From Naegleria gruberi (Eukaryota), in NCBI GenBank assembly GCA_000004985.1, contig GG738865.1: a stretch of DNA of 64,000 nucleotides; one strand, given 5' to 3'. This document shows positions 1 to 64,000 of the stretch, piece after piece. Position numbers and translations under genes: made by a program. The notes below the pieces were generated by a model. It was not told where the DNA came from, did no database searches, and saw nothing but the letters and a program-made list of their open reading frames with translations. The stretch's first letter is position 1, and every line of letters begins with the position of its first letter.

Positions 1-417
1 ACCCAAACCCAAACCCAAACCCAAACCCAAACCCAAACCCAAACCCAAACCCAAACCCAACCCAAACCCAAACCCAAACCCAAACCCAAACCCAAACCCA
101 AACCCAAACCCAAACCCAAACCCAACCCAAACCCAAACCCAAACCCAAACCCAAACCCAAACCCAAACCCAAACCCAAACCCAAACCCAAACCCAAACCC
201 AAACCCAAACCCAAACCCAAACCCAAACCCAAACCCAAACCCAAACCCAAACCCAAACCCAAACCCAAACCCAAACCCAAACCCAAACCCAAACCCAAAC
301 CCAAACCCAAACCCAAACCCAAACCCAAACCCAAACCCAAACCCAAACCCAAACCCAAACCCAAACCCAAACCCAAACCCAAACCCAAACCCAAACCCAA
401 ACCCAAACCCAAACCCA
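1..417. repeat. terminal telomeric repeat array (CCCAAA)n, equivalent to (TTTGGG)n on the G-rich strand
   Basis: About 69 perfect tandem hexamers starting at base 1. The C-rich strand runs 5'->3' on the + strand, as expected at a left chromosome end. CCCAA 5-mer variants occur at about 57-62 and 121-126. Degenerate copies (aaccctag, cccaaaatt) follow to about 470. Confidence 0.9.
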
Positions 418-807
418 GAACTAAAAATAGAATTCTTCTAAACCCAACGTTCAAACCCTAGCCCAAAATTATAAACTTATTCAAATATCATAAAATTTTA
501 TATCATTCGACTGCAAATGATGAGTAGAACAACATGTTATATTTAGTTTTTCAATTTATAAAATATTAACTTTGTAAATAATTTCAGATTAAAATTGTTA
601 AAATGAAACCATAGGAAGAATGATAATTTCAAAATCTTTTAATGAGATTATATAGTTTATATCATCATTAACAATATTCATAATCACTCTCATATGAAAT
701 TTCAAAAGTTCAAGTCTGTAGATATAAAAGTATAGAGAGAAAAGGGAAGATGTGAGGTAAAAGAGGTCAACTATAACTTTTGAGTTTCTCATCTAAACAT
801 ATTGAAT

Positions 808-1221
808 CCTGATATGAAAATGTTCCATTTGATGAGTAAACATCGAATATCAAATTTATTTTAACTTTCATATTTAAAGATTTCTTCCCTCAACCACACA
901 TGGTCAACTAGGTATGAAAAGGATAAAATCTTGAAAAAGAACCATTATTGAAACTTTACCAACATGATGTAGATGATCTACAATGATGTAGAATTCAATT
1001 TCATATCATAAGAATCAGAAATGGTACCGTAGGAAGATAATGGTTGACTTTATAAGGTTGACTTTAAGGAAATACAAGTCAGACCAAGTCTATCAAATAC
1101 ATCACTTCAATCAACAAAATATATATGAAAATGCTCCATTCGATGTGTAGAGATAGAATATCAAGTTTATTTTAACTTTCATATTCAATATTTCATCCCT
1201 TTCATACCAACTAGTCAACTG
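808..1221. repeat. subtelomeric satellite; two homologous ~110-nt blocks about 302 bp apart, running into an assembly gap
   Basis: 808-912 (atatgaaaatgttccatttgatgagtaaacatcgaatatcaaatttattttaactttcatat...ggtcaactagg) is clearly homologous to 1110-1221 (atatgaaaatgctccattcgatgtgtagagatagaatatcaagtttattttaactttcatat...agtcaactg). The second copy is cut off by the N run, so further copies are probably hidden in the gap. Confidence 0.6.
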
Positions 1222-2193
1222 NNNNNNNNNNNNNNNNNNNNNNNNNNNNNNNNNNNNNNNNNNNNNNNNNNNNNNNNNNNNNNNNNNNNNNNNNNNNNNN
1301 NNNNNNNNNNNNNNNNNNNNNNNNNNNNNNNNNNNNNNNNNNNNNNNNNNNNNNNNNNNNNNNNNNNNNNNNNNNNNNNNNNNNNNNNNNNNNNNNNNNN
1401 NNNNNNNNNNNNNNNNNNNNNNNNNNNNNNNNNNNNNNNNNNNNNNNNNNNNNNNNNNNNNNNNNNNNNNNNNNNNNNNNNNNNNNNNNNNNNNNNNNNN
1501 NNNNNNNNNNNNNNNNNNNNNNNNNNNNNNNNNNNNNNNNNNNNNNNNNNNNNNNNNNNNNNNNNNNNNNNNNNNNNNNNNNNNNNNNNNNNNNNNNNNN
1601 NNNNNNNNNNNNNNNNNNNNNNNNNNNNNNNNNNNNNNNNNNNNNNNNNNNNNNNNNNNNNNNNNNNNNNNNNNNNNNNNNNNNNNNNNNNNNNNNNNNN
1701 NNNNNNNNNNNNNNNNNNNNNNNNNNNNNNNNNNNNNNNNNNNNNNNNNNNNNNNNNNNNNNNNNNNNNNNNNNNNNNNNNNNNNNNNNNNNNNNNNNNN
1801 NNNNNNNNNNNNNNNNNNNNNNNNNNNNNNNNNNNNNNNNNNNNNNNNNNNNNNNNNNNNNNNNNNNNNNNNNNNNNNNNNNNNNNNNNNNNNNNNNNNN
1901 NNNNNNNNNNNNNNNNNNNNNNNNNNNNNNNNNNNNNNNNNNNNNNNNNNNNNNNNNNNNNNNNNNNNNNNNNNNNNNNNNNNNNNNNNNNNNNNNNNNN
2001 NNNNNNNNNNNNNNNNNNNNNNNNNNNNNNNNNNNNNNNNNNNNNNNNNNNNNNNNNNNNNNNNNNNNNNNNNNNNNNNNNNNNNNNNNNNNNNNNNNNN
2101 NNNNNNNNNNNNNNNNNNNNNNNNNNNNNNNNNNNNNNNNNNNNNNNNNNNNNNNNNNNNNNNNNNNNNNNNNNNNNNNNNNNNNNNNNNNAC
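1222..2193. other. assembly gap (972 N)
   Basis: Run of n characters. ORFs 1111..2268 and 1215..2210 in the track are translations of N and are not real. Confidence 0.99.
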
Positions 2194-2899
2194 AAGGTAG
2201 ATATCATCATTATACATCATGTATATGAGATTGGTGATGATTATAATAACATTCATATTATAGTACAATAAATGTTGAAAAGTTAATTATTAGACAAGTT
2301 GTAACTTTTTATATATACTGATTCAACATGATTAATTGAAAATATCATCTATTTATCTATATATCTACAGTATATTCAAATTTACATTCCAACTCAACTT
2401 TGAAATTTCAGACCCAACAGGGTAAAAATCTTTATGTTTTAAGCAGTGCCTTATAACTTTTTCTAGACTTTATATTTTTCAAATATTTTTGAGATTATAG
2501 TCAACTCATATGTGTATCTATCATATTTGAAATGATTGTGTTCCAAGTCATACTCGTTACTAGGAAATGAAAAATAAAAGTTAAGCACTAGTTTTCAGAG
2601 TTGATTTTCTGAATAAGTACAGTGAATTAAAATTCCATTTCTTTTTTATTATATAGTGTACAACGTCTAGTATGATATTGGTAAAAGTCAATTTGCAACA
2701 ATTGGACAACTAAATTTGGGTAATGGATTTACCCTACAGTCTCCCAAACCCCAAACCAAATAAATGATAATATCGTGTTCCACATCTCAAATAAGGTGGA
2801 CTTTCTTCAAATTATATTTTTTCATTTCAATAAATGCATCCAGTAGATAGTACATGGTGATTTGTCAGGAGAATGGATGGAAATCTGAACGGTCCAGAA

Positions 2900-3707
2900 A
2901 CAACTCCAATTTCACTGAAATTGATATCATGATATGTAGACACTCTAATTAGCATATGGTATCAATTTCATGAATATTGGTGCAGTAGATATCGACATGT
3001 CAACTCTATCAATTTATTGACATGATATCATAGATTATACTCCAACTCATTCATTTTACATACAATCAGCCTAGAGTTGATACCACATAGTCTGTACATC
3101 TATTAAATACATCTAGTGTAGTTTGGAAACAGTTCAAACTACTTTTATAAAATTAATCAGTAAATGTTCAATGTCAACAGTATATATATCCTAGTGAACA
3201 CTCTATCTCAATGAAAGTACATTCAATCATCCTGTAACTTTACCAGATATGTTAAATTACACTATTACACATCTGGTATCAATTTCATAGTGTTAGAATT
3301 GAATTCAATATGATAATAATAACAATTTTTCAAAAAGTCAACTTTCAGTACAAAGATTACACTCCATCTCAGTCAATTTACAAAATATCATACAAGTACC
3401 AAATATGAATACACTTCCCTTAATAAAGAGAACAATCTGATAAAGTTGCATATTCATGGCTCAATATCTTCAAGTCAACTAAGGAACGTATAAGGTAATC
3501 AATAGGGAAGAATCTTATTTTCAAAATTAAATTTTACTATGATACTATATTCACTGAATAATGAAATACTTATACAAGAATCACATGTTCAATTGTTATA
3601 TTCATGTCAGTAATCAGTGAAGGTGACACTTCTTCAACCTTAGTGTACACATCTCAATATGCATACTGTCAATTCCACTGAAACTTGAAATATTACCTAT
3701 CTAGAAA
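2900..3707. repeat. degenerate tandem repeats (period roughly 320-375 bp) in AT-rich non-coding subtelomeric DNA
   Basis: Recurring motifs: ggtatcaatttcat at ~2957 and ~3274; caatttcactgaaattga at ~2912 versus caattccactgaaacttga at ~3665; actccaactcattcattttaca at ~3040 versus actccatctcagtcaatttaca at ~3361. No ORFs. Confidence 0.35.
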
Positions 3708-3757
3708 NNNNNNNNNNNNNNNNNNNNNNNNNNNNNNNNNNNNNNNNNNNNNNNNNN
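3708..3757. other. assembly gap (50 N) immediately preceding the internal telomere-repeat block
   Basis: n run. Confidence 0.99.
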
Positions 3758-4072
3758 CCCAAACCCAAACCCAAACCCAAACCCAAACCCAAACCCAAAC
3801 CCAAACCCAAACCCAAACCCAAACCCAAACCCAAACCCAAACCCAAACCCAAACCCAAACCCAACCCCAACCCAAACCCAAACCCAAACCCAAACCCAAA
3901 CCCAAACCCAAACCCAAACCCAAACCCAAACCCAAACCCAAACCCAAACCCAAACCCAAACCCAAACCCAAACCCAAACCCAAACCCAAACCCAAACCCA
4001 AACCCAAACCCAAACCCAAACCCAAACCCAAACCCAAACCCAAACCCAAACCCAAACCCAAACCCAAACCCA
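3758..4072. repeat. interstitial (CCCAAA)n telomere-like array, about 52 units, same orientation as the terminal array
   Basis: Perfect hexamer tandem with one CCCCAACCCAA variant near 3862. It ends cccacgactaaggtcagacccaac. ORFs 3685..4119, 3693..4094 and 3697..4110 are translations of the repeat (QT/PK, GL, GF dipeptide runs). Confidence 0.9.
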
Positions 4073-4833
4073 CGACTAAGGTCAGACCCAACATTTTGAC
4101 TTTTATTCATCTTAATTAATTATCTCAATAAATACTCATTATAAATCAATATATTATATATCAATATACTCCAAATTGAATATATAATCATAATATAACA
4201 TAATATTACATCGTTATAATGACTTATTTAAGTTAATTTCATATAATAGATTAGACAATTTTAATATCAATGAAAACATTTCAAAATCAATTCAAATCAA
4301 TATATCACATTATAAATCATGTTTATAACAATACATATCAATTTCAAATACTTTGGTATCATTTCAGGATATTTACTATTCAACTTGTCAACGGACCCAT
4401 TCTAACATTGAAGATAGAAATCTGTTCCACTTCAATTCACTTCCAATACATCTGTACATGATAATTAAATATATTAATATCATTTTGACATTCATCCATA
4501 TCATACATGGTACATGGCTGATCCACTTGATACCTACAGGGTTGTGACAATGACATCTACTATACAGATCATCATGAAATTGATACAGCACCTTACCAAT
4601 GATGAATAAACACCACTGTATCAGTTTCATGACAATTTGAAATCATTCAACATGTCAGGAGTGTAATCATGAGAATAATGAATGTCAAGATAATGAAATC
4701 ATATTAATTTTAAAATCTTTCAATTATAATATCATTTATAGATCAATTAATCATGGTATTTCAATAATTGGTATTGAATTTCATATCAATTCATTCAAAC
4801 CTTAATGACCTAACCTTAGATGACCAAGTCAAT

Positions 4834-5412
4834 NNNNNNNNNNNNNNNNNNNNNNNNNNNNNNNNNNNNNNNNNNNNNNNNNNNNNNNNNNNNNNNNNNN
4901 NNNNNNNNNNNNNNNNNNNNNNNNNNNNNNNNNNNNNNNNNNNNNNNNNNNNNNNNNNNNNNNNNNNNNNNNNNNNNNNNNNNNNNNNNNNNNNNNNNNN
5001 NNNNNNNNNNNNNNNNNNNNNNNNNNNNNNNNNNNNNNNNNNNNNNNNNNNNNNNNNNNNNNNNNNNNNNNNNNNNNNNNNNNNNNNNNNNNNNNNNNNN
5101 NNNNNNNNNNNNNNNNNNNNNNNNNNNNNNNNNNNNNNNNNNNNNNNNNNNNNNNNNNNNNNNNNNNNNNNNNNNNNNNNNNNNNNNNNNNNNNNNNNNN
5201 NNNNNNNNNNNNNNNNNNNNNNNNNNNNNNNNNNNNNNNNNNNNNNNNNNNNNNNNNNNNNNNNNNNNNNNNNNNNNNNNNNNNNNNNNNNNNNNNNNNN
5301 NNNNNNNNNNNNNNNNNNNNNNNNNNNNNNNNNNNNNNNNNNNNNNNNNNNNNNNNNNNNNNNNNNNNNNNNNNNNNNNNNNNNNNNNNNNNNNNNNNNN
5401 NNNNNNNNNNNN
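4834..5412. other. assembly gap (579 N)
   Basis: n run. ORFs 4768..5421, 4820..5425 and 4829..5593 are N translations. Confidence 0.99.
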
Positions 5413-5417
5413 AAGAT

Positions 5418-6287
5418 TTGAATAGAGGATATATCATTCTGACTGAATATGCCAATGATATGATTATTGGAGCCAATTTGAATATTACGGGAGTTGGTTT
5501 TGACAGAATTCCAGTAAGAAATGTAACAGTTCGAAATGCTGGTTCACTAATGAACAAGTATCTATCAATGAATGTATCAGAGGGCGATATCACACAAGTT
5601 ACAGGAGAAGATGGGATTTCCTACATGATTTCCAGTTCATCCTATTCAATAGACAATTTGAAATGGAGAATGACAATAGTGTGTGAGGAGAGTGAAATTA
5701 TGGAAAATGTCATTCTTAGCAGTTATGTCATTTTGGGTGTTGCTATTGGAGTCACCTTAATTGGAATGATGTTCAGTATCTTGATAGGATATGCCATAAC
5801 GAAACCTCTTCGAATCATTCAATCCGATTTTGCAAAGATTGAAGTAATGAGTTTGGAAGATATTGAGAGACACTCTTCATTCTTTACCGAAATTAGAAAT
5901 ATCTATGTGAGCTTGTACTTGACAGTCAAGTGGTTACAGGAATTTAGAGCTTTCCTTCCAGAGAATATTCTTAATCAATTGGAAAGCAATGATCCTCAGA
6001 AACCTAAAGTAATTACAACACCTTCAGATCAACATGTCATTGAGAATTCAGCCAAACAACATTACCTAAAAAAGGAGAACTCATCATACTTGGAAGAGAA
6101 ATCCTCCCATACTTCATCATTCTTCCTTGGTGTTGATACCAATACCAATAACAAGATGAATCTCTTCAAAATTGGTTTGTCAACCCTTAACAGCTCTGTA
6201 ATGTATATCAAGATACAGNNNNNNNNNNNNNNNNNNNNNNNNNNNNNNNNNNNNNNNNNNNNNNNNNNNCTGTGTAGATTATTATAA
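5418..6287 (+). pseudogene. truncated paralogue of the Cache/TM/cyclase-homology receptor gene at 23427-26065; 5' end lost in the gap, no cyclase-homology domain downstream
   Basis: The protein GYIILTEYANDMIIGANL...NLKWRMTIV...ILGVAIGVTLIGMMFSILIGYAITKPL...WLQEFRAFLPENILNQLES aligns residue-for-residue with QKGFVIISEYGNDYIIGSSL...NLKWRMTLF...ILGVSIAVAILGILVSILVGWVVTSPF...WLSEIRAFIPDSILNQLDE of the 23427..25106 ORF. The frame opens directly at the gap edge. It closes shortly after a second 51-N gap (6219-6269). No coding potential is seen from 6290 to 7190. Confidence 0.55.
6219..6269. other. assembly gap (51 N)
   Basis: n run. Confidence 0.99.
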
Positions 6288-7197
6288 TCGTAATACCTTA
6301 CAATACCAATAAAACTCAATAGAAGAGTTAATTCTTCTCATTTTCAAATAGATTATTCAATATAGAACACATCTAGATAGTTTCCAGATCATAAAAGTCA
6401 AGCTACTATATATGGTCTTTGATTAAATTTAAAAATAGACTGCCGTTGATTACTGGAATCTTGATTCAAATTTTGTTTTTGAAGGTATGATGATCAAACT
6501 ATTGATTGAAAATCAAACCGATTATTTAATATTGATCATTGAATTGGTAAATAATCACTCTCTTTATAATGCTACATATTGAAGATTGATGCAAATCAAC
6601 GTGATTCAATCTACAAAGGTTGGTAGTTGCACCACTTCGTGGCGAAACTACCCATCCACAATCAATCAACATGTGATTCACTTCCATTCAACTCAATTTG
6701 ACCGTTATAATCAATAAATCAATGAAATGTTCCTTTATTAGCAATACCTATTCAATCTAATGAGTAGATTCACGTCCCAAACATTTGACTTCTCAAAGTC
6801 CATAATTCAAAAGTTGATACTGACCTGACCTTTATATATCTATCAATATAAGAAATGAAAACATCAAATTTACATCATTAATAGATTATAAGAAATATAA
6901 TCAATGATATAAATCTTCACTAAGTAATCTCTTAAATAGCCCAAATAAATCAACTCTGAATCCTAAACTCGTCCAAACACTGAACAGAACTAGATGGTTG
7001 AACAGCTAGTCATTGTTTGCTGTTTTATGGTGTATTCGAGATTTTGAAATCTTGAGAAATATGGATTTCTGATGGTTATTTCTAAACTTTGTTTATTGAC
7101 TTTTATGGAAAGGAATAAAATTGTCATCATGTGATAATTATGACTATCATGACAACAAGAGAATATACACATTTAAACAAAGTCTTTGTTGACATAT

Positions 7198-8016
7198 TTA
7201 TGAATAAAATACAAAAATTGCAAAGAATACCAATGCAATACTAAGGACAATGCTCAAAATATCCATTCCATCGAGAGAATTGAAGAAATTCTTCTTTGGT
7301 GGTGAGGATTCAATTTCAATGTTTGCTTTTTCTGTTTCAATATTTTCTAGTTGACTATCAGTTTCAACATTTTCCAGTGAATTTGGTATGTCAAAACTAA
7401 ATGCAGCGGTTTGAGCTTGAGGAGATCGAGGAACTTGGTTAGTAGATCCAAAACTAAAAGGATCAGAATTTGATAAATTACATGAATTCCCCATCATTTC
7501 ATTAAACATGTTTGTCATGTATTCCCCTTGTTGCTGTCGTAGGAAAGTTTTCAACAGTTCTTCTTGTAATTTCTGTTGTTGCTCCAGCTCACTTGTAGAT
7601 CCAAAACTAAATCCACTTGTTGCCTTTGGTAGTTGAGAGAATTCAGAACCTAAACTAAATCCATTTTGTACTGATTGAGTTGGTGGAGGAGGTAGAAAAT
7701 TACATCCACCAATCTGATTCGATTGTTGTTGCACTAATCCACCACATGTTGGTGGTGAAAAAGCACCAAAAGTAAATCCACCAAAAGAAGGTTGAGGAAC
7801 TTGGTTTGTATTAAATTGACCAAAATTATTTGGGAAATTGTTTGTTGATGAATTAATTTCTGTTGGAAAGAAAGGATTGGCAGATTGAGTGGAGGCAGAT
7901 CCAACATTAAATGCAGAAAAACCTTGGTCAACTGGACCAAACGGACCTAATTGACCTAAATTATTTGCACCTAAATTGCCCAGAACCTTTTCACGTTCTC
8001 TTTTCAAATCAATCAT
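7198..8016 (-). CDS. FG/FxFG-repeat, Q/N-rich protein with a C-terminal transmembrane tail anchor
   Basis: 272-aa ORF. Motifs FGGFTFGAF, GFSFGST and FSFGST. The C terminus ILSIVLSIALVFFAIFVFYS is hydrophobic and sits at the very end of the protein. Confidence 0.5.
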   Translation of the reverse strand: MIDLKREREKVLGNLGANNLGQLGPFGPVDQGFSAFNVGSASTQSANPFFPTEINSSTNNFPNNFGQFNTNQVPQPSFGGFTFGAFSPPTCGGLVQQQSNQIGGCNFLPPPPTQSVQNGFSLGSEFSQLPKATSGFSFGSTSELEQQQKLQEELLKTFLRQQQGEYMTNMFNEMMGNSCNLSNSDPFSFGSTNQVPRSPQAQTAAFSFDIPNSLENVETDSQLENIETEKANIEIESSPPKKNFFNSLDGMDILSIVLSIALVFFAIFVFYS

Positions 8017-8257: not shown

Positions 8258-11200
8258 TTAAAATAATTTTGCCAATACTGATAGCTCATTAATAATATCA
8301 TTAAACGAAGGTCTTTCCAGTGGTGCCTGATTCCAACATTTCACCATTAAATTTTGATATCTTTCCACTAGTGAAATAATCCCACTTCCATCCAATTGAT
8401 TACTATCCTTTCTGATATTGAAAATTTGTGAATCCTGATTGATAATCCATTCATTAATTTCCTCTCTGGACTTTAATATTATTGGACGATTTCCCAGGGA
8501 GACAAGATAAGGAATTCGATAAGGTGAAGCATCTTTTTGAACTTCCTTAGTAAGAGGATTTTCAATGAACGGAACAATACAGTATAGTAATTCATACATA
8601 ATGATTGAAAAACTGTAAACATCTAATTTTGTAGCAATTTTGAGTGATTTCTTTTCGTCTTTTGGAACAATTGAATCGTCAACTGATTCTGGAGCTAGAT
8701 ACATCAAAGTACCCACGTTCATTGTCATGGTTGACTGAACAGAATTTCTTACCAATCTCACCAATCCAAAATCACATACTTTTCCTTGAAAATGATCATT
8801 CAAAAGAATATTTCCAGGTTTCTATAAAAGGATTAATATTAATCCAATTATGTTAAAATAAAAAAAACGTACCAAATCTCTGTGAATAATTCCAGGTTTC
8901 ATATTATGCAAATAATCCATTCCATTTGCAACATCCAACAGAATGGAAATTCTCATAGAAAATTGTAATCTGAGAGTTCCATTCTTACATTGATAAATTA
9001 CTTGATCCAAACTTCCTTTTGTTAAATATTCAGTGACCATGTACTTGTTTTGTCTAGTAATGGCCACACCATAGAATTGGACAATGTTTAAATGGTGGAG
9101 TCTACTTAAAATAGCTGCTTCCTTGTCGAATTCATCAACTTCATTGGTCATTTCTAATGATTTTATGGATTTGATAGCAACTTTGATATTTCTCCATTTA
9201 CCCAAATAGACAACTAAAATGTTTGAAAACTAAAAATCAACAAGTGACTTACCTCCATTTCCTCCTTCTCCAATCTTTTTCTCTATATGTAAATCCTCAA
9301 TTGGAATGATAAAGCTTTGATCCTCATTATCCAATAATGGAATAAATAAATCCCCATTACCTGCACTAGCAGATGTCGATGCGCTCTTCTTAGAAGCTTT
9401 TGAATGTTGTTTTGTTTCCTCTTCATCATCACTCATATCAAAGATAACCTTCTTATCATTTAGTTTTCTTTCCAATTCCGCTTCTGCTCTATCCTTTTCC
9501 TTCAATCTTCTTAAACTATTGACAACTTTCCTCAAGATGAAATAGATCAGTAATGAAATTAGTAAGCCCATGACAAAAGCCAATATTGTAACTGGCACCA
9601 CAATTGATACGATAAGCCATGTATAATCCTCAGGGTTTTTCACACAAGCGTACAAATAATTCACATCTTTAAATTCAATAATGGTTCCTGGAACTTTTTC
9701 AATGTGATATCCTTTATCACAATTTGCCATGTAAGCTGTGTAATAGAACTTCTGGACGAGTATATCGGCCTTGAAATACATGGATACTTCCACTAGAGAA
9801 GAATTTTCACCATTTGAATTAGTAATAATACTCTGTGGAATATTGACAGCAGAAAATACGTCATTTGCAATTAGATATGGAATTACCTTAATGGTAAAGT
9901 TTCCAATCTCTGTAATGTTGAATACAACCTTTGAGTGCATAGACCCGACACGTATTCTCTCATAATAGAGTGGAATTAGATTTCCAATATTGTCTGTACC
10001 TTTCACATTAAAGGTAAATTCTGATCCAGGTTTAAGAATGTTAGCTGACTTGTTGGTGTCTGATATAATTTCCAATTCACTCAATGCATATGAAAAATTA
10101 TTTGGTATATTGGTTCCAATTATTTCATTTCCAATAATTAGATTTCCAATAAATTCATTACTTGGATCTACACTTTCTGGACCTAAAATATATACAGCAG
10201 CACCCATAAACAATGCTTGATTGTTAATAAACTTGGTATTGATAAAACGTCCATAGCCAACCAAGTACCGTGGAATGTAAGCTATTGCTCCACCTTTTTT
10301 GGCATAATTATTAATAAATGTTGCTGATTTCCATATATAATCATCTACTCTGTTAACTGAGGCATCAGTACATAGGAAAATAGCACCACCCATATTGGAA
10401 TAGTTATCCCGACCTATTACTCTATTGCTATCGAATAGAGATCCAGAATATTGGAATTGAATTACTAATGAACCAATATAGAGTGCACCACCTGAAATCA
10501 GTGCAATATTATTTCTAAAAGTACATGAAATAATATTAAGAGAGTAGGCTAAATCTATAAATATGGCACCTCCTGCACCACCCACTGAGGTATTATTTTC
10601 GAATTGACAATTAGATATTATTCCAATAGCATTAAGGTAACTTCTAGAAAATATTGGAACGAAAATGGCTCCTCCACTTTCCCTTGCCTCGTTACCAAAG
10701 AATGAAGACTTGTCAATTACCAACTTGAATATTCTACTAATGTAAAGACAAGATCCATTGATCCCTCTGTTGTTTAGAAATTGAGAATTTGTAATTGTGA
10801 CTTCATAGCTTTGTTCAATGATTACAAGATTTTTCAGATCTGGATAATAAGAGTTGCTATTGTTTGTCAACGTAATTTGATCAAGTTTCACTGAAGAAAA
10901 TCCTTGAATTGAAGCAAATGACTCTCCGTCATAGCCATGTGTATTTAAAATCTCAATACTGGTACCAAAATCAGCCATAATTGCAGAATCTCCACTATAT
11001 TGTGTAAATTCATTAGTATTGAATGTAATTTTAACAATATTTGTAATTCCAATCTTTGAATTGATTAATAAACATCCATAAACTTGCAACTCTTTAGATG
11101 AAGCAAGAAATAGTTGTGTTTCTTCAAATTTGGTTTGAAAAATTGTAATCTTGTCCATTTCAGAAAATAACATTCCACTTCCCACACCATTTACAATACT

Positions 11201-12220
11201 TTTAAGCAAAAGTAGTGAAGTATATCGATAGACCAGAAATCCTGAATTGGTATTGACAGCTTTCTCATATGCAGCATTTTCAATTAACATGTAATCTCCC
11301 TTGACTTGAGTTCCCAAACAATTTTGTTGGATATTGACAGCCATTAGAATACTAAAGAATGAAACATCAAAAAAGATGTAATTGTAAGCTCTACATCCTC
11401 TAATATTCATATAAAGTGAAAGTCCATTGAACACAACAAGTTGTAGATCAGCTCTCTGTGTTTCTCCTATAATTGGAAATCCACCCTTTTCTTCACAAAA
11501 TAATGCTGAAAGCACATTAACATTATCCATAGATTGAAACGTTACAATGTACACTAGATTCTGTTTAGTTGGTGTAACAATTGATGAATAGCATTCAAAC
11601 ACATCATTCAGTAAAACAAATTTAACAGAAACAGCTCTACTCAATCCAGTATTTTCCAAAAAAGAAGAATAGTTCTGATGAAGAATGTAATCCAAAGAAT
11701 CGAGAGCATGTTGAATAGTTGCACATGGAGTATCCACTGAACGACCACAAACCTCCTCTTTGGCACTTTTTTCAAGTTTTGAATCGACATAGAATGTAAT
11801 CAATAAATTAGAATTTTGATAGACGGCTAATTGTTGTGTAAAAACCTTGTAGGCCTGTGAATTGATCCAGCGCTGATTGTTGGATTTGACACCCCGATGG
11901 TGGTGAGGTTTCGAATTGCCACCATTTGTTTTATAAAATTCTACATTTTCCATAGATAGTGATGGTATTGTAAATTGAGCCTCTCGATTATTGATGAGTT
12001 TGTAGTTGGTATTATTGTTAAAAGTGTAAGGAGTTCTTTGATTTGGACTTGTGCTCCATTCCGAAACCAATCTTGTTGATGAATATTCGTGATGAAAAGT
12101 TGTTGTTGTTGTTCCTGTTGGTGCTACTACTGTCAGTGTTGATGCTGTTGTAGTTTCAATTTGACACACAACCCACAAGACAATCAACAACAGTAACAAA
12201 ACTGTAAACGACAACTTCAT
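8258..12220 (-). CDS. receptor-type TKL serine/threonine kinase: signal peptide, PMP-like parallel beta-helix repeat ectodomain, one TM, cytoplasmic kinase. Three exons, approximately 12220..9253, 9213..8873 and 8821..8258.
   Basis: ATG at ~12220 gives MKLSFTVLLLLLIVLWVVCQ (signal peptide). The ectodomain has GGAI/GGAL-type repeats (GGAGGAIFIDLAYS, SGGALYIGSL, MGGAIFLC, KKGGAIAYI) like polymorphic-membrane-protein beta-helices. The TM segment is WLIVSIVVPVTILAFVMGLLISLLIYFIL. Intron 1 is ~9214-9252, GTAAGT...TTTTAG; splicing it gives IGEGGNGVVYLGKWRNIKVAIK (Gly loop plus VAIK). Intron 2 is ~8822-8872, GTACGT...TATAG; splicing it gives HRDLKPGNILLNDH. DFG and APE motifs follow (CDFGLVRL, LMYLAPE). 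Confidence 0.8.
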
Positions 12221-12324
12221 TATGTTGTGTGAAATTTTTTTGAATACTAATGAAATGTCTGTGCGACATGCAACAGTTGATGAAAAGATTCTCAAATTAA
12301 GAAAGTATTTAATACAGTTAAGAT

Positions 12325-22254: not shown

Positions 22255-22968
22255 ATGCATGCAGAGCAGATGAAGACAGTAGTGGAAGAGTCATCATCAT
22301 TTATTCCATTTGATGGAAAATTATCGGAAATGATGAAAGATGTTCGGGAGGATTTTAATACAGATTTAATTGAGGTGATCATGTTGTGGTTCAATCAATA
22401 CAAGATGAGTCATATTAGTCATTTGTATAGGGATTTGGATGAGATTGGAATGAATGATTTGTGGACTAATGTTTGGTTTGCAAAGGAAGATTCCCAAAAA
22501 TTCATGGATAAAGAATTGAAAAAGTTTGAACCTTTTTATGAACAATATATGAATTATGAACCTAAATATCTGTATGAATATATTGCATTGATTGTGCTTT
22601 ATGATCAAGTTCCGAGAAATATATTTAGGAATAGTGCAAAAGCATACGAGACAGATAGAAAGGCATTGGATTTGGCTCGTTCTCTAGTTCCTTACATGGA
22701 TAAGCTGCCTATTCAGTTTAATATTAGTATTATCATGTCATTTGTACATTCAGAGGAATTGGAGGATTTGAAACAAGCCAAACAGTTTATTGAAGCATTG
22801 GAAATTAAGTATGCCAAGTATAATGTGCTGAAGAATCTCAAGCTCATATTTAAAAATCACAACGATAGAATGGAATTGTTTGGAAGAATTCCTGAAAGAA
22901 ATAAGTATTTGGGAAGAGCATCAACAGAAATGGAATTGACCTATTTGAAGAATATCAATTCTCAATAA
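22255..22968 (+). CDS. DUF924-family protein
   Basis: LYDQVPRNIFR matches the DUF924 D-Q-[FV]-PRN motif. The C terminus FGRIPERNKYLGRASTEMELTYL matches the conserved FGRFPHRNxxLGRxSTxEE end. ATG at 22255. Confidence 0.7.
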   Translation: MHAEQMKTVVEESSSFIPFDGKLSEMMKDVREDFNTDLIEVIMLWFNQYKMSHISHLYRDLDEIGMNDLWTNVWFAKEDSQKFMDKELKKFEPFYEQYMNYEPKYLYEYIALIVLYDQVPRNIFRNSAKAYETDRKALDLARSLVPYMDKLPIQFNISIIMSFVHSEELEDLKQAKQFIEALEIKYAKYNVLKNLKLIFKNHNDRMELFGRIPERNKYLGRASTEMELTYLKNINSQ

Positions 22969-23088: not shown

Positions 23089-23207
23089 GGCTACGGCCAT
23101 ATCACGATGAATGCACCTCATCCCGTCCGATTTGAGAAGTTAAGCATCGTCGAGCTACATCAGTACTGAGGTTGGAGACAACTTGGGAACCTGTGGTGCT
23201 GTAGTCT
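23089..23207 (+). rRNA. 5S ribosomal RNA gene, solitary
   Basis: GGCTACGGCCATATCAC...CATCCCGTCCGATTTGAGAAGTTAAGC...AGTACTGAGGTTGGAGACAACTTGGGAACCTGTGGTGCTGTAGTC aligns along its whole length with eukaryotic 5S consensus. The ends pair (GGCTACGG with CTGTAGTC). A TTTTT pol III terminator follows at 23207-23211. Confidence 0.9.
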
Positions 23208-23426: not shown

Positions 23427-26065
23427 TTATTCTTCGGGTGTGGAATACAACAGTGCTGAAGGTAATCTCTCACCTGGTTTGATAAAACTCACAAATTCCT
23501 TGGCTACAGCCGAATGGTAATATAACAGATTTGGATTTGTTGTTGATTCTTGCACTGTTGATATTAAATGTTCTAATCTCATTACAACAACATCGTTAGG
23601 ATCCAATCTTTTGGCTTCTGCAAGTTCCTTTCTCATCTTGGTCAAATCATCTTGATCGAATTCATCATCCACAAATAATTTTGAAAAGTATGAAGAAAAT
23701 GCATCAAATTTAGAGTTGGCCTTCTTTTGCTCCAATTCATAAAGCCATTCATCATCTTGCACAATATTCTTTCTAAGAATTTCATATACTGTATCTATTT
23801 GTCCCTTCTCCTTATTCCAGATTCTTTCTGTTGGCCTAGTAATAAAAGACTCCTGTGTTTGTGTAAATGTCCTTGAATCACAAATGATTGCCACATTAAG
23901 ATACCATGAAAAGTCATTCAATAGTTTGGCTCTTTCAATAACCTCTCCAACCAGAGCCATGTAACGCATTTGCTTATTACCAACATTACCTTGAATCATT
24001 TGACCTGATGAAATGGAGATGCATGATTTCAGAGCTATTTGATCATCTTTTTGAATTTGATCATTAATGGAATTGAAAAAGGTTTGTATCTTTAGGGCTG
24101 TTTCAATGGCAGTACTTGAAGGACTCTTATCTGAAGGTGAAAATATAATGACATATTCATTGTAGGCTTTGATTTGTAAATCTGCCTTACAGGTCTTACA
24201 CATTTGTGAAATTGCGGTCAGACATTTAGAAATCAAGTTCTGTAACAATCCAGATTCGTAATCAAAGTTATTCTGATTCAGATTTGGAATGGTCAAATAC
24301 ATGATGGAACACTCTTTCATTCCCAGACCAAGTTTGAATAAATGACTGGACTTGTGATTGGAATTTCTGTGATGGGATTGATGTTGATGAATAGAAATTA
24401 CATCTGAGGCACCGTTTGAACTTCTTCTCGAAATTGTATCAAAATTATTGTTGGAATTCTTGGCTGCTGCTGTAAATGAATTAGCATTATCAGTATTGGT
24501 TTCGGTATCTTGCTTGGCTTCATCCAATTGATTCAAAATGGAATCTGGAATGAATGCTCTAATTTCAGAAAGCCATCTTATTGTTTCACTCAGAGAGGCA
24601 TAGATTGCTTTGGGCTCGCTAAAAATTGAACTTCTTCTTTGAATTTCAGACAAGTGCAAGGTTTCAATATTCTTAAAATCTTGCTGAAGTTTTGCAAATG
24701 GGCTTGTTACTACCCAACCAACAAGAATGCTCACAAGAATTCCCAAAATGGCCACAGCAATAGAAACTCCAAGAATAACCCAACTACTTTCAATAATTCC
24801 CTTCTTAATTTCAGATTCATCAAAGAAGAGAGTCATTCTCCACTTTAAATTGTGGAATGTATAAGGTGCAGAAGAGATGAGGAATGAATTTCCCAAACCA
24901 TTATCCAAACTTGTTTGGAAAGAGGTCAAATTTGCAATATTATTCTCTTGTTGATGTTTGAACAGTTTCTCCATCATTTTACCTGCATTTTGTGAGACAA
25001 TTTCAGTTGTTTTGACTCTCTTTGAATCAACTCCATCCACAGCTAGAGAAGATCCAATAATATAATCATTGCCATACTCTGAAATGATCACAAATCCTTT
25101 TTGCATGACTTTTACAGATGATAAAAACTTGGCGATTGCTGCCAGTGAAATGTTGATCTTGGCAAATCCAATTCTTGTCTTGTTAGTTGATGAGGTTGGA
25201 TCTGATCTCCTATAAATTGGTGTACTCCAAAAACTCGAAATTGGTCCATTAATTACTATTTAAATTAGGTTGAATAATAATAAGAATTAGAGTTAATACG
25301 GTTAGAATATGAGAGAAAACACATACCCTTATAAGGAGCTCCAAAACCACCATTCACATATTGACTATGAACAATCATTGATTCCTTATAGTAATCTGTA
25401 TTGGCTACTACATAGGTAATATTAGTAGTGACCTTATCTGGATAGTATTCTCCTGTGGTCATGTTTGCCTTGTACATGATAAATCGTGAACCCTCTGGTT
25501 TTCTCACATACACCAATGAACCATCTGCATTGACACTGTAGGCATAAAGAGCATTGTTTCCATCCTCTCCAAAACACAGATTTGTCACTGTGACTCCAAA
25601 TTGTTTCACTCGTGTAAAGAGATAGTATTGTATCGATTCAGCCATATCCACAAATCCATTATGGTAATCCTCAGCTATGGAATCGGCAACATATTTGGCT
25701 GGTAACAGTTGTGAATTGACAAAGCCACCAATCTTTTCATTCATATTTTCAATAATTACCTTAACTTGATCCAAAGAGGCCTGTTCATTCATTGTATAGG
25801 AAGTGATCCAGATAGTCAATGCTGTCGTCACCACAACCATCATGATCATGACAATGAGGAATAATCTTACACTGAGTAGAAATCTGAGACAACACCCCCT
25901 ATCTGATGATGAGTAGCCATCATCATAATCCTGCCCTCCCGAATCATCTTCAGGGAACATGTTCTGTAAATTATTATTCTGCACATATTTTGCTGATTTT
26001 GAGAAGGAGAGTTCAGTTTCTGATGTTGTTGATTGTTGAGGAACCACCCTATTCGTTACTACCAT
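23427..26065 (-). CDS. receptor with TM, extracellular Cache-like domain, TM, juxtamembrane linker and a class-III nucleotidyl-cyclase homology domain, apparently catalytically degenerate. Two exons, approximately 26065..25327 and 25255..23427.
   Basis: The intron at ~25256-25326 (GTATGT...AAATAG) joins ..GAPYKG to VINGPISSFWS.. in frame. The first TM is FLLSVRLFLIVMIMMVVVTTALTIWI and the second is WVILGVSIAVAILGILVSILVGWVV. The cyclase-homology core is CSIMYLTIPNL...KAYNEYVIIFS...GQMIQGNVGNKQMRYMALVGEVIERAKLL. By eye this aligns to vlFaDIvgFT...GDaym...GpvvaGvvG.kr.rYdvwGdtVNtAsRmE, with the metal-binding Asp pair and the N/R transition-state residues replaced. Confidence 0.65.
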
Positions 26066-49924: not shown

Positions 49925-52900
49925 TTATTTGGATGTGAGAGAGGATGGTAGGTAGAATTTCAGAGAAGGAATGGTAACTGATGAATTATCAAGTAGGGAT
50001 CTTCCAGTAATTTGCAAGAGTACAAAATCGTCATCTGAATTGAAAGCATTGAAATTCACCCAAAGTTGGACCAATTTAGAGCTCATTCTCTGATTCAATG
50101 GAGATACAGTAGAGAATACAAATTGAAAATTGGAATAGATTGAGTAGGAATTGCCAGATGCATTGGAATCTTTCAATTCTATAGAAAGAGTTTCACATGA
50201 GTATTTTTCCTTCATCATGTCAACAATATCCTTAATTGTAAAGTCTTGTCTTTCATTTGCATTGTTAAGTTCTAAAAGATCCCATTCTGTTACAGAAATA
50301 GTTTCATTTCCTGTATTAAGGGAAAAGCTTTGTGTTCTCAAATGTAAGTATTTAAAAAAATCTGTTGAATACTTTCCACTACAATCTATTGAATAACTGG
50401 GGAATTGTTCACCTTTCATAGGAGATTCTTGTACAAGCTTTCCAATAATTGTTAAAAGTATTGTAACAATCAAACACATACCTTGTAATATTGTAAAGTT
50501 GCATATCCAGCAGTTATTGAATTACTAATTGAATTGCTAGGAGTCAATCCAACCACTCTCTTAATATAGTGTTTATCCACTATTGGTGGAATTTTATAGC
50601 ATTGAGCTCTAACTAGAGCACATGCTTGAACGAAATCCAAATGTAAATCATTGTAAGGATCAAAAGTAATGAATTCAATATTCAATTGGTTCAATATTGT
50701 TTCAATTTTTTCTTTCAATGTTTCTTCAGAAAGTTCAGAATCAATTTTTTTCATTCCCAAATCTTCTTCTTTCAAAACTTTGGCTAATATTTCTTTCAAT
50801 TCTTCCATATTTGGTAAATCAACTGAATAAACCTTGGATCTCAAAATAGCACTATATAGAACAAAATCCAAGTGAGAGGCATTGATAGCATTGAAAGGAA
50901 CAGGAACTGGTCTTCTCATTCTAGCCAAATATTCAGGTAAAGTGCCATTCCTCATGAATGGAGCAAAATATGTTTCTAATATTTCACTAATTCCCTTATC
51001 GAAATATTCATTGAATTTGACAACTGCCCATCTTATGCTATTTTCAAAATGGCAAGGATTGTATAGAACAATATCAGTGTACTTGTCTCTGAAATCACCA
51101 AATGGGCCTAAATGAATGAGTAAATTATCCTTATACATTTCTTTGAAAGGATAGTCAATTGAGAAATTTATCATATCCTTCATGGAGCCATAATAATTGA
51201 TTATTTGTGGATAGGATACTTCGTTACTCTCCCTAACATGCTTTCCACTCAAGTGTGGAATCATTAAAGTGACATTTCCTTTCATACATTCACTTGTGGC
51301 AAAAATTGCTCTTTTGGTAGAATTAATGACACGAGAAACAATTAAATCAGCAATTGGTTTTCCAGGAACTGTGCACGTATATCCACTATATTGATCCAAA
51401 TTATTCCAAGAAAATTGTTCCTCTTCTTCATTCACTGGTCTTGCTCTCGCATATTCTTCAACCATGTCAATTTTCATTTGAGGATTAATGTGATTTTTCA
51501 CGTAGTCTATTGCGAGCATGGACTTGATATTGGCAAACTTACTTATATCCTCCTCTATAATGAATGGATGTGTTATGAGATTTGGTAAGATGGCCTCCTT
51601 GGCATCGACAAGAGTTGTGGATGGAGCTTCTTCATGAGAACTGAGACCCATCAGGGCATAATTCTTCAAACATTCCCATCCTAATCCACCCATTCCAAAT
51701 ATTACCTCATTAGATTTCATTATTTTTGATTGTAATGTTTTACCAATCAAGTTAATTTGTTGTTGAAATCTTTTCATTTTGTGTGGAATGTTAACACAAT
51801 CTTCGTGAGTTGGAAGAGGACTTGGCAGGCAATCCCATGCATCTAAACATTCCCATTGATCAATTATTGGAAAGTAATACATACTCAAATTCTTGAGAAT
51901 TTCCATCACAATGAAAGCTCCCGTGATGCTTGTGAATGGAGCTGACCTTCCTTGACATGTGAAAGCAAGGGTTTTGCAAATTTCTTGATTGAAGAATTGG
52001 TTTGGAATTCTATCTTTTGCAAATTGCACAAATTCTAAAGCATCTTGCTCATGGTAAGGTTTTGGAATTTTTCCATTCTCCCTTTCGAATAGTTCAAGTT
52101 GAGTGAAAGCATGTCTCTTCTCTACCTTCGTCCTTGAATCCGAATCTTTAAATGTTGGATTATCCAACTCTTCTTTAAGTGATTTAAGCTTGTGAGATCT
52201 TATATCTAGACCAGTAACATTACATTTCATGAAATAAGCTGAGCCATCCCCCAATTCGAATTTTCCAAAATTAGTAGAATCCAAATCTACAACCACTCGA
52301 TTTCCAATCTTTGATTTGATTCTAACCGCCTTGTGTTCATTCAATTCCGTCATTCCCCTAACATTTCTAAAGACAATATTTTGATGAACATTCATTCCCT
52401 CTTCCTTATTAAATTCATCATCTAAAAGATCAATTTTTGTTGGGTTTCCATTGATGATATCCTTAATTGAACAACCTTCTTTGAAGCCAGGGTTCAGATC
52501 TTTGATTTTGTGTTCGCCCATATCATAGAATATTAAACATGATAAGCCCTTCATGTCGGATGCCACGAATTTAATATTATTATCGTGACAGGTTTGAGCC
52601 AAATCAATCAGTGATGAAAGAGAATGTTCAGTACAAATAATAAAATCAAACTCTTTCAAAAACTGCACATCACCTGCCAAGCTGTCAACTTGACCATCTT
52701 TCACATTAATTTGTGCAAATGGATTCAATCCATTCAACACAATCATTGCTCTCTCCGCTCTATTTCTTCCAATCACTTCTACCTCCTTCGAATCGGCAAC
52801 AATCGAATAAAAATCTGCCAAATCCTCATACGAAACCATCTTTGAATCCATCAGTGTTAATTGTTCAATTCCATTTTGGAGTAAATTCTTTGCCACTTCC

Positions 52901-53073
52901 AATCCAAGTCCTCCCATTCCACACACCAACACTCTACACTTATTGAAGGTTGTGATTTTATCCTCTGGCCACCACGTATGCACCAATGTATCATAGAATT
53001 GCTGTTTGGTTAGTGTCGACATTTTTTTTTCTTTTGAAAAGTCGCACACTTTTGGCGGGAAGATGTTTAACAT
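49925..53073 (-). CDS. UBA1-type E1 ubiquitin-like-activating enzyme (two ThiF/MoeB adenylation folds, catalytic Cys, C-terminal UFD in exon 2); intron ~50438-50481
   Basis: First fold VLVCGMGGLGLEVAKNLLQNGIEQLTLMD; second fold VIFGMGGLGWECLKNYALMGLS. Catalytic region YNPCHFENSIRWAVVKFNEYF (compare [23 protein letters not shown]). The GTATGTG...GGAAAG intron joins ..ATLQYYK to LVQESPMKGEQFP.. (ORF 49925..50479). The initiator may be MLN (53073) or MSTLTK (~53022). Confidence 0.75.
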
Positions 53074-61052: not shown

Positions 61053-61234
61053 ATCCTATCCTTCTTCTTCTATTTCTTATATTAAAGATATAAAACTTGG
61101 TGGGCTGGTTCTCTATATGATGTTCCTAACTGATATTATTGAGTGCAATAGGTGTGTGTGTGCGTTGTTGGAAAAATACACAAATTGTTGTTGTGATAAA
61201 ATCACATCAAATTGGAAAAATTGAAATTAAAAAA

Positions 61235-62287: not shown

Positions 62288-62375
62288 ACTAGTTTTCAAG
62301 TTCAATTTACTATTTTACATGGTTACTTATTGACAGTTTAAGAATTTATTTTAATTTTACTGACACTTTCTCAAT

Positions 62376-63821: not shown

Positions 63822-64000
63822 ATCAGTGGCCTTTCTACCACCTTTCAGAGGAATGATATTCTCCTTTGCAGCTTCAAATTCCTCAAAATCAACAATGACC
63901 CTTTCCTCTGTTGATGTTGGTTGTTGTGTTGAATCTTGAATTCCACTTTGATTGTTATTATTATGAGTATTAATGGCAATTGGAGATTGGAAACTATTAG

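What the first reader, a model, noticed from the sequence alone, without database searches (positions are those of the whole stretch)
1..4100. Chromosome end with (TTTGGG)n telomere, subtelomeric satellite and a second internal telomere block
The window starts with about 0.4 kb of perfect CCCAAA hexamers in the orientation expected for a left chromosome end. TTTGGG on the G strand is not TTAGGG, TTTAGGG or TTGGGG, so the repeat itself helps narrow the lineage. A ~300-bp-period satellite follows (808-1221) and runs into a gap. A second perfect (CCCAAA)~52 block sits 3.76 kb inside, in the same orientation, immediately after a 50-N gap. That is either a genuine interstitial telomeric sequence (for example from end healing or a subtelomeric duplication) or a scaffolding join between a telomere-bearing contig and another contig.
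Basis: seen in the sequence. Interest (0 to 1): 0.55.

Follow-up and report, generated by a model that had tools for sequence, protein, structure and literature searches.

The report
Naegleria chromosome end with second telomere block
The window opens on a chromosome end of a Naegleria amoeba capped by the (TTTGGG)n telomere already proposed for N. gruberi in 2013, and the second telomere block 3.8 kb inside sits on a tiny contig next to an assembly gap, so it is more likely an assembly effect than a true internal telomere.

Summary
The two repeat blocks are real. Positions 1-417 hold 67 CCCAAA units plus 2 CCCAA units. Positions 3758-4072 hold 50 CCCAAA units plus one CCCAA and one CCCCAA. 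Both are in left-end orientation, and the second starts directly after a 50-N gap. They are near-perfect, not perfect.

The claimed satellite is one pair of about 100-nt segments 311 bp apart, with no visible array.

The organism is a Naegleria. Genes use the standard code, one protein is 78% identical to N. lovaniensis, and a metagenome contig is 98.9% identical in DNA. TTTGGG was already reported as the candidate N. gruberi telomere (Fulneckova et al. 2013), so the motif is not new.

New here:
- The roughly 280 bp next to each block are weakly but significantly homologous at the same offset from the repeats.
- A short decayed telomere-like tract (2743-2760) lies between the blocks in the same orientation.
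- The first 6.3 kb is split into four read-sized contigs, while the other 58 kb has no gaps.

I favour (about 0.55) that block 2 is the terminal telomere of an alternative version of this end, a haplotype or a paralogous end, threaded in by scaffolding. A true interstitial tract remains possible (about 0.3). Only reads spanning 3700-4100 can decide. Interest is low.

The parts
1..417 (+). Telomere array 1. C-strand (CCCAAA)67 plus 2 CCCAA units; G-strand TTTGGG. It begins at window base 1.
418..700 (+). Telomere-adjacent element 1. It starts with degenerate telomere-like units (AAACCCAACGTTCAAACCCTAGCCCAAAA) and is homologous to 4073-4352 at the same offset from the array.
   Evidence: BLAST 470-695 vs 4129-4349, 62% identity. 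Local score 35 vs 19.4+-2.9 in dinucleotide shuffles, and 12-24 against 18 other non-coding chunks; the alignment starts 52 and 56 nt from the junctions. Alignments.
812..1220 (+). One pair of about 100-nt direct repeats (812-909 and 1123-1220) spaced 311 bp apart. The second copy runs into a gap.
   Evidence: (D2)
1222..2191 (.). Assembly gap, 970 N
2743..2760 (+). Relic telomere-like tract CCCAAACCCCAAACCAAA, in the same orientation as both arrays. It is the only such match outside the arrays in 64 kb.
   Evidence: 0.08 expected by chance in the whole window, both strands
2897..3390 (+). Decayed local tandem duplication (2897-3068 vs 3213-3390, spacing about 316 bp, 62% identity), unrelated in sequence to the 812/1123 pair.
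   Evidence: z 11
3708..3757 (.). Assembly gap, 50 N, directly distal to array 2. The contig before it (2192-3707) ends in unique sequence, not in repeats.
3758..4072 (+). Telomere array 2. (CCCAAA)50 plus CCCAA and CCCCAA, same orientation as array 1. It forms the first 315 nt of a 1076-nt contig (3758-4833).
4073..4352 (+). Telomere-adjacent element 2, homologous to 418-700. The first bases share ACTAA and A(A/G)ACCCAAC(G/A)TT with element 1.
4834..5412 (.). Assembly gap, 579 N
5415..6218 (+). Open frame of 268 codons filling an 806-nt contig between two gaps. It is a truncated paralogue (38% identity) of the N-terminal half of the gene at 23427-25106 (-). No frame stays open after the 51-N gap at 6219-6269.
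   Evidence: no Pfam family; no database homologue

Best explanation
The window starts at a left chromosome end of a Naegleria genome, most likely N. gruberi or a very close relative, in a gapped scaffold assembly. That the gaps and small contigs come from a draft clone-based (Sanger-type) assembly is my inference from contig sizes and from memory; the tools do not show it.

Block 1 (1-417) is the telomere. It is the C-strand copy of (TTTGGG)n, which telomerase would add to the 3' G-strand end from a CCCAAA-containing RNA template. This mechanism is established for this class of repeat but is not shown here.

Block 2 (3758-4072) is a second authentic telomere-subtelomere junction, not a random microsatellite. 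It has the same unit, the same orientation and a similar length. The roughly 280 bp proximal to it are homologous to the 280 bp proximal to block 1, at the same offset.

I think block 2 is most likely terminal in the molecules it was read from. On this view it caps an alternative version of this end, either a shorter haplotype or a paralogous end whose proximal sequence collapsed onto this scaffold. The scaffolder then threaded the 1.1-kb contig that carries it in series with the contigs of the longer version (1-1221 and 2192-3707). On that reading the scaffold's order Tel-A-Tel-B does not exist on one DNA molecule.

Shown: the arrays, their orientation, the gap positions, the flank homology and the organism. 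Inferred: terminality of block 2 and the scaffolding history.
For: Organism:
- Standard-code ORFs cover about 48 kb of the 62 kb.
- The UAA transporter at 61139-62287 is 78% identical to N. lovaniensis and 69% to Willaertia magna.
- A metagenome contig is 98.9% identical over 3.36 kb.
- TTTGGG is the published candidate telomere of N. gruberi (PMC3622300).

Arrays.

Block 2 behaves like a contig end:
- It starts at the first base after the gap, with no distal unique sequence.
- The contig before the gap ends in unique sequence with no CCCAAA. If a long interstitial array had broken the assembly, both contigs facing the gap should end in repeats.
- An array of only about 315 bp would be short enough for single reads to cross (inference).

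Assembly state: the first 6.3 kb is split into contigs of 1221, 1516, 1076 and 806 nt by four gaps, while the remaining 57.7 kb has none. That pattern fits thin or conflicting read support at this end.

Array quality: 50 of 52 units in array 2 are perfect, yet the flanking elements are only 56-62% identical. The only other telomere-like tract is decayed to 18 nt. A tract internalised long ago should have decayed too, so block 2 is either maintained at a terminus or was internalised very recently.

Flank homology anchored at the junction (z 5.3-6.0) argues against a random break healed by telomerase.
Against: - No read-level data are available, so contiguity across 3708-3757 is untested.
- N-run lengths differ (970, 50, 579, 51). 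They therefore look like mate-pair estimates, which would mean that clones link the distal contigs to this scaffold.
- The relic tract at 2743-2760, in the same orientation, shows that telomere repeats have been internalised in this very subtelomere before. This raises the prior for a real interstitial tract.
- Head-to-tail Tel-element-Tel-element layouts do exist in nature, for example yeast Y' elements separated by internal TG1-3 tracts (my knowledge).
- I could not examine any other chromosome end of this genome to see whether the telomere-adjacent element is general.
Confidence: 0.55

Rival explanations
1. Block 2 is a genuine interstitial telomeric tract. On this view an older chromosome end (array 2 plus element 2) was extended when about 3.7 kb from another end, carrying its own telomere-adjacent element and telomere, was added onto it. 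The addition could have come by recombination or break-induced replication within the repeats, or by end joining. The old telomere was left inside. The gap would then reflect only thin coverage.
For: - Both arrays have the same orientation, and each is followed by a homologous roughly 280-bp element, as expected for stacked end modules.
- A decayed telomere-like tract at 2743-2760 in the same orientation shows earlier internalisation in this subtelomere.
- Scaffolding placed the distal contigs here, and the varied N-run lengths suggest mate-pair estimates.
- Genome surveys often find internal telomere blocks longer than 100 bp (PMC3622300).
Against: - The array touches the gap, so no sequence shows unique DNA joined to its distal side.
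- The contig distal to the gap does not end in repeats.
- The array is near-perfect although the duplicated flanks have diverged to about 60% identity and the other relic has decayed to 18 nt.
- A 315-bp tract should have been crossed by ordinary reads (inference).
Confidence: 0.3
2. Block 2 reflects heterogeneity within the culture. In some chromosome copies the end broke at about 4072 and was healed by de novo telomere addition. Both the long and the truncated versions were sequenced and then merged in one scaffold.
For: - The first 6.3 kb is fragmented into read-sized contigs, which would fit mixed templates.
- Array 2 is near-perfect, as newly synthesised repeats would be.
Against: A random break would not be expected to land exactly where the adjoining 280 bp are homologous, at the same offset, to the sequence next to the terminal telomere. 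That points to an evolved end structure rather than a fresh break.
Confidence: 0.1
3. The locus is not from Naegleria but is a ciliate macronuclear chromosome end with alternative telomere-addition sites. Paramecium uses TTTGGG mixed with TTGGGG.
For: CCCAAA hexamers occur in Paramecium telomeres (10.1101/2025.11.06.686955). Alternative telomere-addition sites a few kb apart are typical of ciliate macronuclei (my knowledge).
Against: - The standard genetic code gives 40 ORFs of at least 150 aa covering most of the window.
- The closest named proteins are from Naegleria and Willaertia.
- The arrays hold 117 CCCAAA units against 1 CCCCAA, not a random mixture.
Confidence: 0.01
4. The segment between the arrays (418-3707) is a telomere-targeting mobile element, like MoTeR, Athena/Terminon or SART/TRAS, which inserts at telomeres and leaves repeat tracts between copies.
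For: The head-to-tail layout of telomere tract, element and telomere tract resembles such insertions (my knowledge; MoTeR paper listed).
Against: - No ORF longer than 64 aa lies in 418-3707 outside the gaps.
- Six-frame translations of 418-1221, 2192-3707 and 4073-4833 hit no Pfam family at E<=0.1.
- No second copy of this sequence occurs in the window.
- The 970-N gap could hide something, but it is far too short for a reverse-transcriptase gene plus its flanks.
Confidence: 0.03

Closest known systems
Candidate telomere repeat TTTGGG of Naegleria gruberi (Fulneckova et al. 2013, Genome Biol Evol, PMC3622300)
   Same: Same hexamer, same genus by gene content, and found at a sequence end in the expected orientation.
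   Different: Nothing differs for the motif itself. That paper inferred the repeat in silico and said experiments were still needed. It does not describe this locus, the telomere-adjacent element or the internal block.
Paramecium macronuclear telomeres (random mixture of TTGGGG and TTTGGG)
   Same: TTTGGG is one of the two hexamers.
   Different: Here the arrays are almost purely TTTGGG (117 units against 1 CCCCAA). The genome uses the standard code and is heterolobosean, not ciliate.
Yeast subtelomeres: Y' and X elements separated by internal TG1-3 tracts (my knowledge)
   Same: If block 2 is truly internal, the layout is telomere, element, internal telomere tract, element, all in one orientation, with related sequence next to each tract.
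   Different: No helicase-like ORF or any other coding remnant lies in the distal segment. The related flanks are only about 60% identical. Contiguity is unproven.
Human subtelomeric (TTAGGG)n-like islands at duplicon boundaries (my knowledge)
   Same: The 18-nt degenerate tract at 2743-2760, in the same orientation as the terminal array, looks like such a relic.
   Different: Human islands are usually degenerate. The 315-bp block 2 is near-perfect.
Internal telomere arrays beside N gaps in draft scaffolds, a standard sign of a false or haplotype-stacking join (my knowledge of assembly quality control)
   Same: The array begins at the gap edge, sits on a read-sized contig and lies in a heavily fragmented scaffold end.
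   Different: The two arrays are head-to-tail, not the head-to-head pattern of a simple end-to-end join of two scaffolds. The distal piece is only 3.7 kb.

Membership tests
Telomerase-type telomere repeat array (TnGm class) | Tandem short repeat with strict strand asymmetry (G/T-rich on one strand) | tested here: met
   Period 6, 69.8 and 52.7 copies, 99% matches. All 120 array matches are on the + strand as CCCAAA.
Telomerase-type telomere repeat array (TnGm class) | Located at the physical end of the molecule with the G-strand running 5'->3' towards the end | tested here: inconclusive
   Array 1 starts at window base 1 in the correct orientation, but the window does not say whether base 1 is the end of the record. 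Array 2 has the correct orientation for the sequence to its right but is placed 3.76 kb inside the scaffold, next to a gap.
Telomerase-type telomere repeat array (TnGm class) | The same repeat caps the other chromosome ends of the genome | not testable with these tools
The literature reports TTTGGG as the candidate for N. gruberi from assembly ends (PMC3622300).
Telomerase-type telomere repeat array (TnGm class) | Terminal position and telomerase synthesis shown experimentally (Bal31 sensitivity, TRAP assay, RNA template) | not testable with these tools
   The 2013 paper itself states that experiments are required.
Interstitial telomeric sequence (for block 2) | Non-telomeric sequence contiguous with the tract on both sides in one molecule | tested here: inconclusive
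   The proximal side is contiguous (4073 onward). The distal side is a 50-N gap (3708-3757), and the preceding contig ends without repeats.
Interstitial telomeric sequence (for the 2743-2760 tract) | Short, degenerate telomere-like tract embedded in unique sequence | tested here: met
   CCCAAACCCCAAACCAAA lies inside contig 2192-3707 and is the only match outside the arrays, with 0.08 expected.
Subtelomeric satellite | Several head-to-tail copies of a unit of some hundred bp | tested here: not met
   TRF finds no long-period array. There is only one pair of about 100-nt segments at 311-bp spacing. Any further copies would have to be inside the 970-N gap.
Ciliate (Paramecium-type) macronuclear telomere | Random mixture of C4A2 and C3A3 units; ciliate nuclear genetic code in neighbouring genes | tested here: not met
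   117 CCCAAA against 1 CCCCAA. Standard-code ORFs and Naegleria-like proteins.
Telomere-targeting retroelement arrays (MoTeR, Athena/Terminon, SART/TRAS) | Reverse-transcriptase ORF or its remnant between the telomere tracts | tested here: not met
   No ORF longer than 64 aa and no Pfam hit in six frames.

The most novel reading that the evidence does not exclude
Block 2 is truly internal. On this reading Naegleria subtelomeres grow by stacking end modules: each module has a telomere tract followed by a conserved roughly 280-bp telomere-adjacent element. A fresh 315-bp tract (3758-4072) and an old decayed one (2743-2760) would record successive rounds of end capture. This would be the first description of subtelomere architecture and a telomere-associated sequence in Heterolobosea.
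Probability: 0.3. Interest if true: 0.35.

Novelty: already known. Interest (0 to 1): 0.2.

Why it matters
The telomere motif is unusual among eukaryotes but was already reported for N. gruberi, so this locus mainly illustrates a published in-silico inference. It adds a little practical value. It gives a concrete junction (417/418) and a candidate telomere-adjacent element that could serve as probes or primers for the experimental confirmation that is still missing (Bal31, TRF or STELA-type assays). It also flags a probable scaffolding problem at 3708-3757 in the assembly. If the internal block proved real, it would give a first view of how subtelomeres are built in a deep-branching eukaryotic lineage, which would be of modest specialist interest.

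Tried and rejected
1. Ciliate origin. I considered Stentor, Paramecium or another ciliate with alternative telomere-addition sites. I rejected this because the standard code gives long ORFs and the homologues are from Naegleria and Willaertia.

2. Finding the source record or independent contigs of this end. Exact-protein look-ups of eight window ORFs found nothing. These covered 22255-22968, 53397-55532, 7198-8016, 4388-4630, 4270-4461, 598-792 and 6990-7172. A closely related strain exists in metagenome run ERR1078381, but I could only reach its contig for window 60.6-64 kb.

3. A homologue search with the subtelomeric ORF 5415-6218, meant to reach contigs near the junction, found nothing. 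The first protein search (E1 enzyme) gave only distant hits at about 25% identity and did not identify the organism.

4. A metagenome scan for the shared junction motif CCCAAACCCAAACCCANNACTAA gave 26 loci. All carried only 2-4 units in unrelated sequence, so they are chance matches and not Naegleria ends.

5. Reaching a telomere in N. lovaniensis through synteny failed. The orthologue lies 97-118 kb inside a 444-kb contig, out of reach of the 10-kb flank.

6. I tested whether the distal segment (418-3707) is a colinear copy of the proximal one (4073 onward), as stacked haplotigs would be. Only the first roughly 280 bp are related, at about 60% identity, and the rest is unrelated.

7. A third copy of the telomere-adjacent element was sought with an nhmmer profile. 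None was found in the window.

8. Rfam and tRNA scans of the region found nothing in 1-8 kb.

9. Literature searches for later work on Naegleria telomeres found only the 2013 survey.
Full report
**What is in the sequence**

The window begins with a period-6 array at 1-417: 69.8 copies, 99% matches. Unit by unit it is 67 CCCAAA and 2 CCCAA, ending in CCCA before unique sequence.

A second array of the same unit and strand lies at 3758-4072: 52.7 copies, 99% matches. It holds 50 CCCAAA plus an adjacent CCCAA-CCCCAA pair. Its first base follows a run of exactly 50 N at 3708-3757.

With up to three mismatches, (CCCAAA)3 matches 121 times in the window against 0.08 expected. Every match is on the + strand. 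The arrays are therefore real, strongly non-random and oriented as a left chromosome end should be, with the C-rich strand 5' at the end. They are near-perfect rather than perfect. I cannot check that window base 1 is the end of the record, so 417 bp is a minimum length.

**The 'satellite'**

TRF reports no long-period array. There is one pair of about 100-nt segments, 812-909 and 1123-1220, spaced 311 bp apart. They are 77% identical without gaps and 83% with gaps, with z = 28 against shuffles. The second copy runs into the 970-N gap.

A second, unrelated and more decayed pair lies at 2897-3068 and 3213-3390, spaced about 316 bp apart at 62% identity, with z = 11. These are local tandem duplications. 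Nothing visible qualifies as a satellite, although the gap could hide more copies.

**Whose genome this is**

The window is 34% G+C. Under the standard genetic code it carries 40 ORFs of at least 150 aa, which together span about 48 of the 62 kb of real sequence. The domains are ordinary eukaryotic ones: E1 enzyme, BTB, VWA, RGS, LRR, kinase and Mad3/BUB1.

The UAA-type sugar transporter at 61139-62287 is 78% identical to a Naegleria lovaniensis protein and 69% to one from Willaertia magna. It is 100% identical to a protein from a metagenome. That metagenome contig is 98.9% identical in DNA to window 60650-64000. The UAA and Mad3/BUB1 gene pair is syntenic in N. lovaniensis.

So the window comes from a Naegleria. 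The N. gruberi draft assembly is the most likely source. That last step is an inference from the G+C content, the gapped scaffold and the literature below. The collection searched returned no protein named as N. gruberi.

**What is already known**

Fulneckova et al. 2013 (PMC3622300) searched 143 genome assemblies for terminal minisatellites. [quoted passage not shown] My searches found no later work on Naegleria telomeres.

TTTGGG is otherwise known as one of the two hexamers mixed at random in Paramecium telomeres. Here the arrays are almost purely TTTGGG, and the genome is not ciliate. The motif is therefore not a new finding.

**Anatomy of the end**

The first 6.3 kb consists of four small contigs of 1221, 1516, 1076 and 806 nt, separated by gaps of 970, 50, 579 and 51 N. 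The remaining 57.7 kb has no gap.

No ORF longer than 64 aa lies in the real sequence of 418-4833. Six-frame translations of 418-1221, 2192-3707 and 4073-4833 hit no Pfam family. This excludes a recognisable retroelement or helicase element.

The 806-nt contig is one open frame (5415-6218). It is 38% identical to the N-terminal half of the gene at 23427-25106, and it has no continuation after the next gap. It is a truncated subtelomeric paralogue or a broken assembly of one. The first solid gene is a receptor-type kinase at 8258-12295.

First, the sequences immediately proximal to the two arrays are related.
- BLAST aligns 470-695 with 4129-4349 at 62% identity.
- A local alignment scores 35 against 19.4 +/- 2.9 for dinucleotide shuffles (maximum 29 in 300), and 12-24 for 18 other non-coding chunks of this region.
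- The alignment starts 52 and 56 nt from the respective junctions and ends at 278 and 277 (z = 6.0 with a second null).
- The first bases after each array also share ACTAA and A(A/G)ACCCAAC(G/A)TT.
- The similarity is weak: 56% over the global alignment.
- It is anchored at the same offset from the repeats, which is hard to get by chance. A profile of the two finds no third copy in the window.

I read this as a diverged telomere-adjacent element present at both junctions.

Second, the only other telomere-like tract in the whole window is CCCAAACCCCAAACCAAA at 2743-2760. It is on the same strand and lies between the two arrays. It looks like a decayed internalised telomere remnant.

**What the internal block is**

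Block 2 has all the features of a real telomere-subtelomere junction. The open question is whether it is terminal or internal in the cell.

Points favouring a terminal block placed inside by scaffolding:
- The array begins at the gap edge, so no sequence shows anything joined to its distal side.
- The preceding contig ends in unique sequence, not in repeats. If a long interstitial array had broken the assembly, both contigs facing the gap should end in repeats. A 315-bp tract would be short enough for ordinary reads to cross.
- The contig that carries it is read-sized, and the whole end is fragmented. That fits thin or conflicting read support, for example diverged haplotypes or a collapsed paralogous end.
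- 50 of 52 units are perfect, although the related flanks have diverged to about 60% and the other relic has decayed to 18 nt. The array is therefore either maintained by telomerase at an end or very recently internalised.

Points favouring a true interstitial tract:
- The N-runs differ in length, so they look like mate-pair estimates. That would mean clones link the distal contigs here.
- The two arrays are head-to-tail, each with a related element, like stacked end modules.
- The relic at 2743-2760 shows that internalisation has happened in this subtelomere before.

A fresh break healed by telomerase is less likely. It would not be expected to land where the flank is homologous, at the same offset, to the flank of the terminal telomere.

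My estimates are 0.55 for an alternative end threaded in by scaffolding, 0.30 for a true interstitial tract and 0.10 for healing heterogeneity. The remainder goes to a mobile element or other explanations.

**What I could not do**

No reads and no other part of the genome were available.
- Exact-protein look-ups for window ORFs found nothing.
- The homologue search from the subtelomeric ORF found nothing.
- A metagenome scan for the shared junction motif returned only chance matches with 2-4 units.
- The N. lovaniensis orthologous region is too far from a contig end to reach.

**Verdict**

This is a real Naegleria chromosome end with the already published TTTGGG candidate telomere. The 'satellite' is not one. 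The internal block is an authentic telomere junction whose internal placement is unproven and more likely an assembly effect. Interest is low. The only modestly novel points are the conserved telomere-adjacent element and the relic tract, which need other chromosome ends and read-level data to evaluate.

Noticed in passing
window 23089-23207 (+): A single 5S rRNA gene (Rfam RF00001, 102.7 bits, full length) sits alone between protein-coding genes about 23 kb from the telomere. It is not in a 5S array and not linked to other rRNA genes.
   Followed up: no
window 5415-6218 (+) and 23427-25106 (-): The read-sized subtelomeric contig is one open frame. It is 38% identical (E 8e-56) to the N-terminal half of a 559-aa protein encoded 18 kb further in. 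That protein has one predicted membrane-spanning stretch. Neither sequence hits any Pfam family, and the fragment has no database homologue. This appears to be a lineage-specific gene family with a truncated copy at the chromosome end.
   Followed up: partly
window 812-1220 and 2897-3390: Two unrelated local duplications in the subtelomere have nearly the same spacing, 311 and about 316 bp. I have no explanation for the shared period.
   Followed up: partly
window 56-60 and 121-125: The two short CCCAA units in array 1 are exactly 65 nt apart, that is 10 perfect units plus 5 nt. This could be a small higher-order duplication within the telomere or a recurring read error. Array 2 has a different variant pattern (CCCAA-CCCCAA near 3860-3870), so the two arrays are not copies of the same reads.
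   Followed up: no
L001 (ENA ERZ929261, run ERR1078381, project PRJEB11402) vs window 60650-64000: An environmental metagenome contains a strain 98.9% identical in DNA to this window over 3.36 kb. That data set could provide an independent view of this chromosome end if its reads were searched for the 417/418 and 4072/4073 junctions.
   Followed up: partly
window 50470-53073 (-): An E1 ubiquitin-activating-enzyme-like ORF of 867 aa is only about 25% identical to its best database hits. It shows no match to the C-terminal ubiquitin-fold domain (PF09358) that nearly all of those hits carry. It may be a divergent or truncated E1 paralogue, or the domain may lie beyond an intron.
   Followed up: no
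window 2906-2980: A 25-nt inverted repeat (80% complementary, 25-nt spacer) lies inside the first copy of the 2897/3213 duplication. Related GGTATCAATTTCAT motifs recur at 3275 and, inverted, at 4552-4586 (I1, I4, D6). This is a short dispersed motif in the subtelomere of unknown meaning.
   Followed up: no
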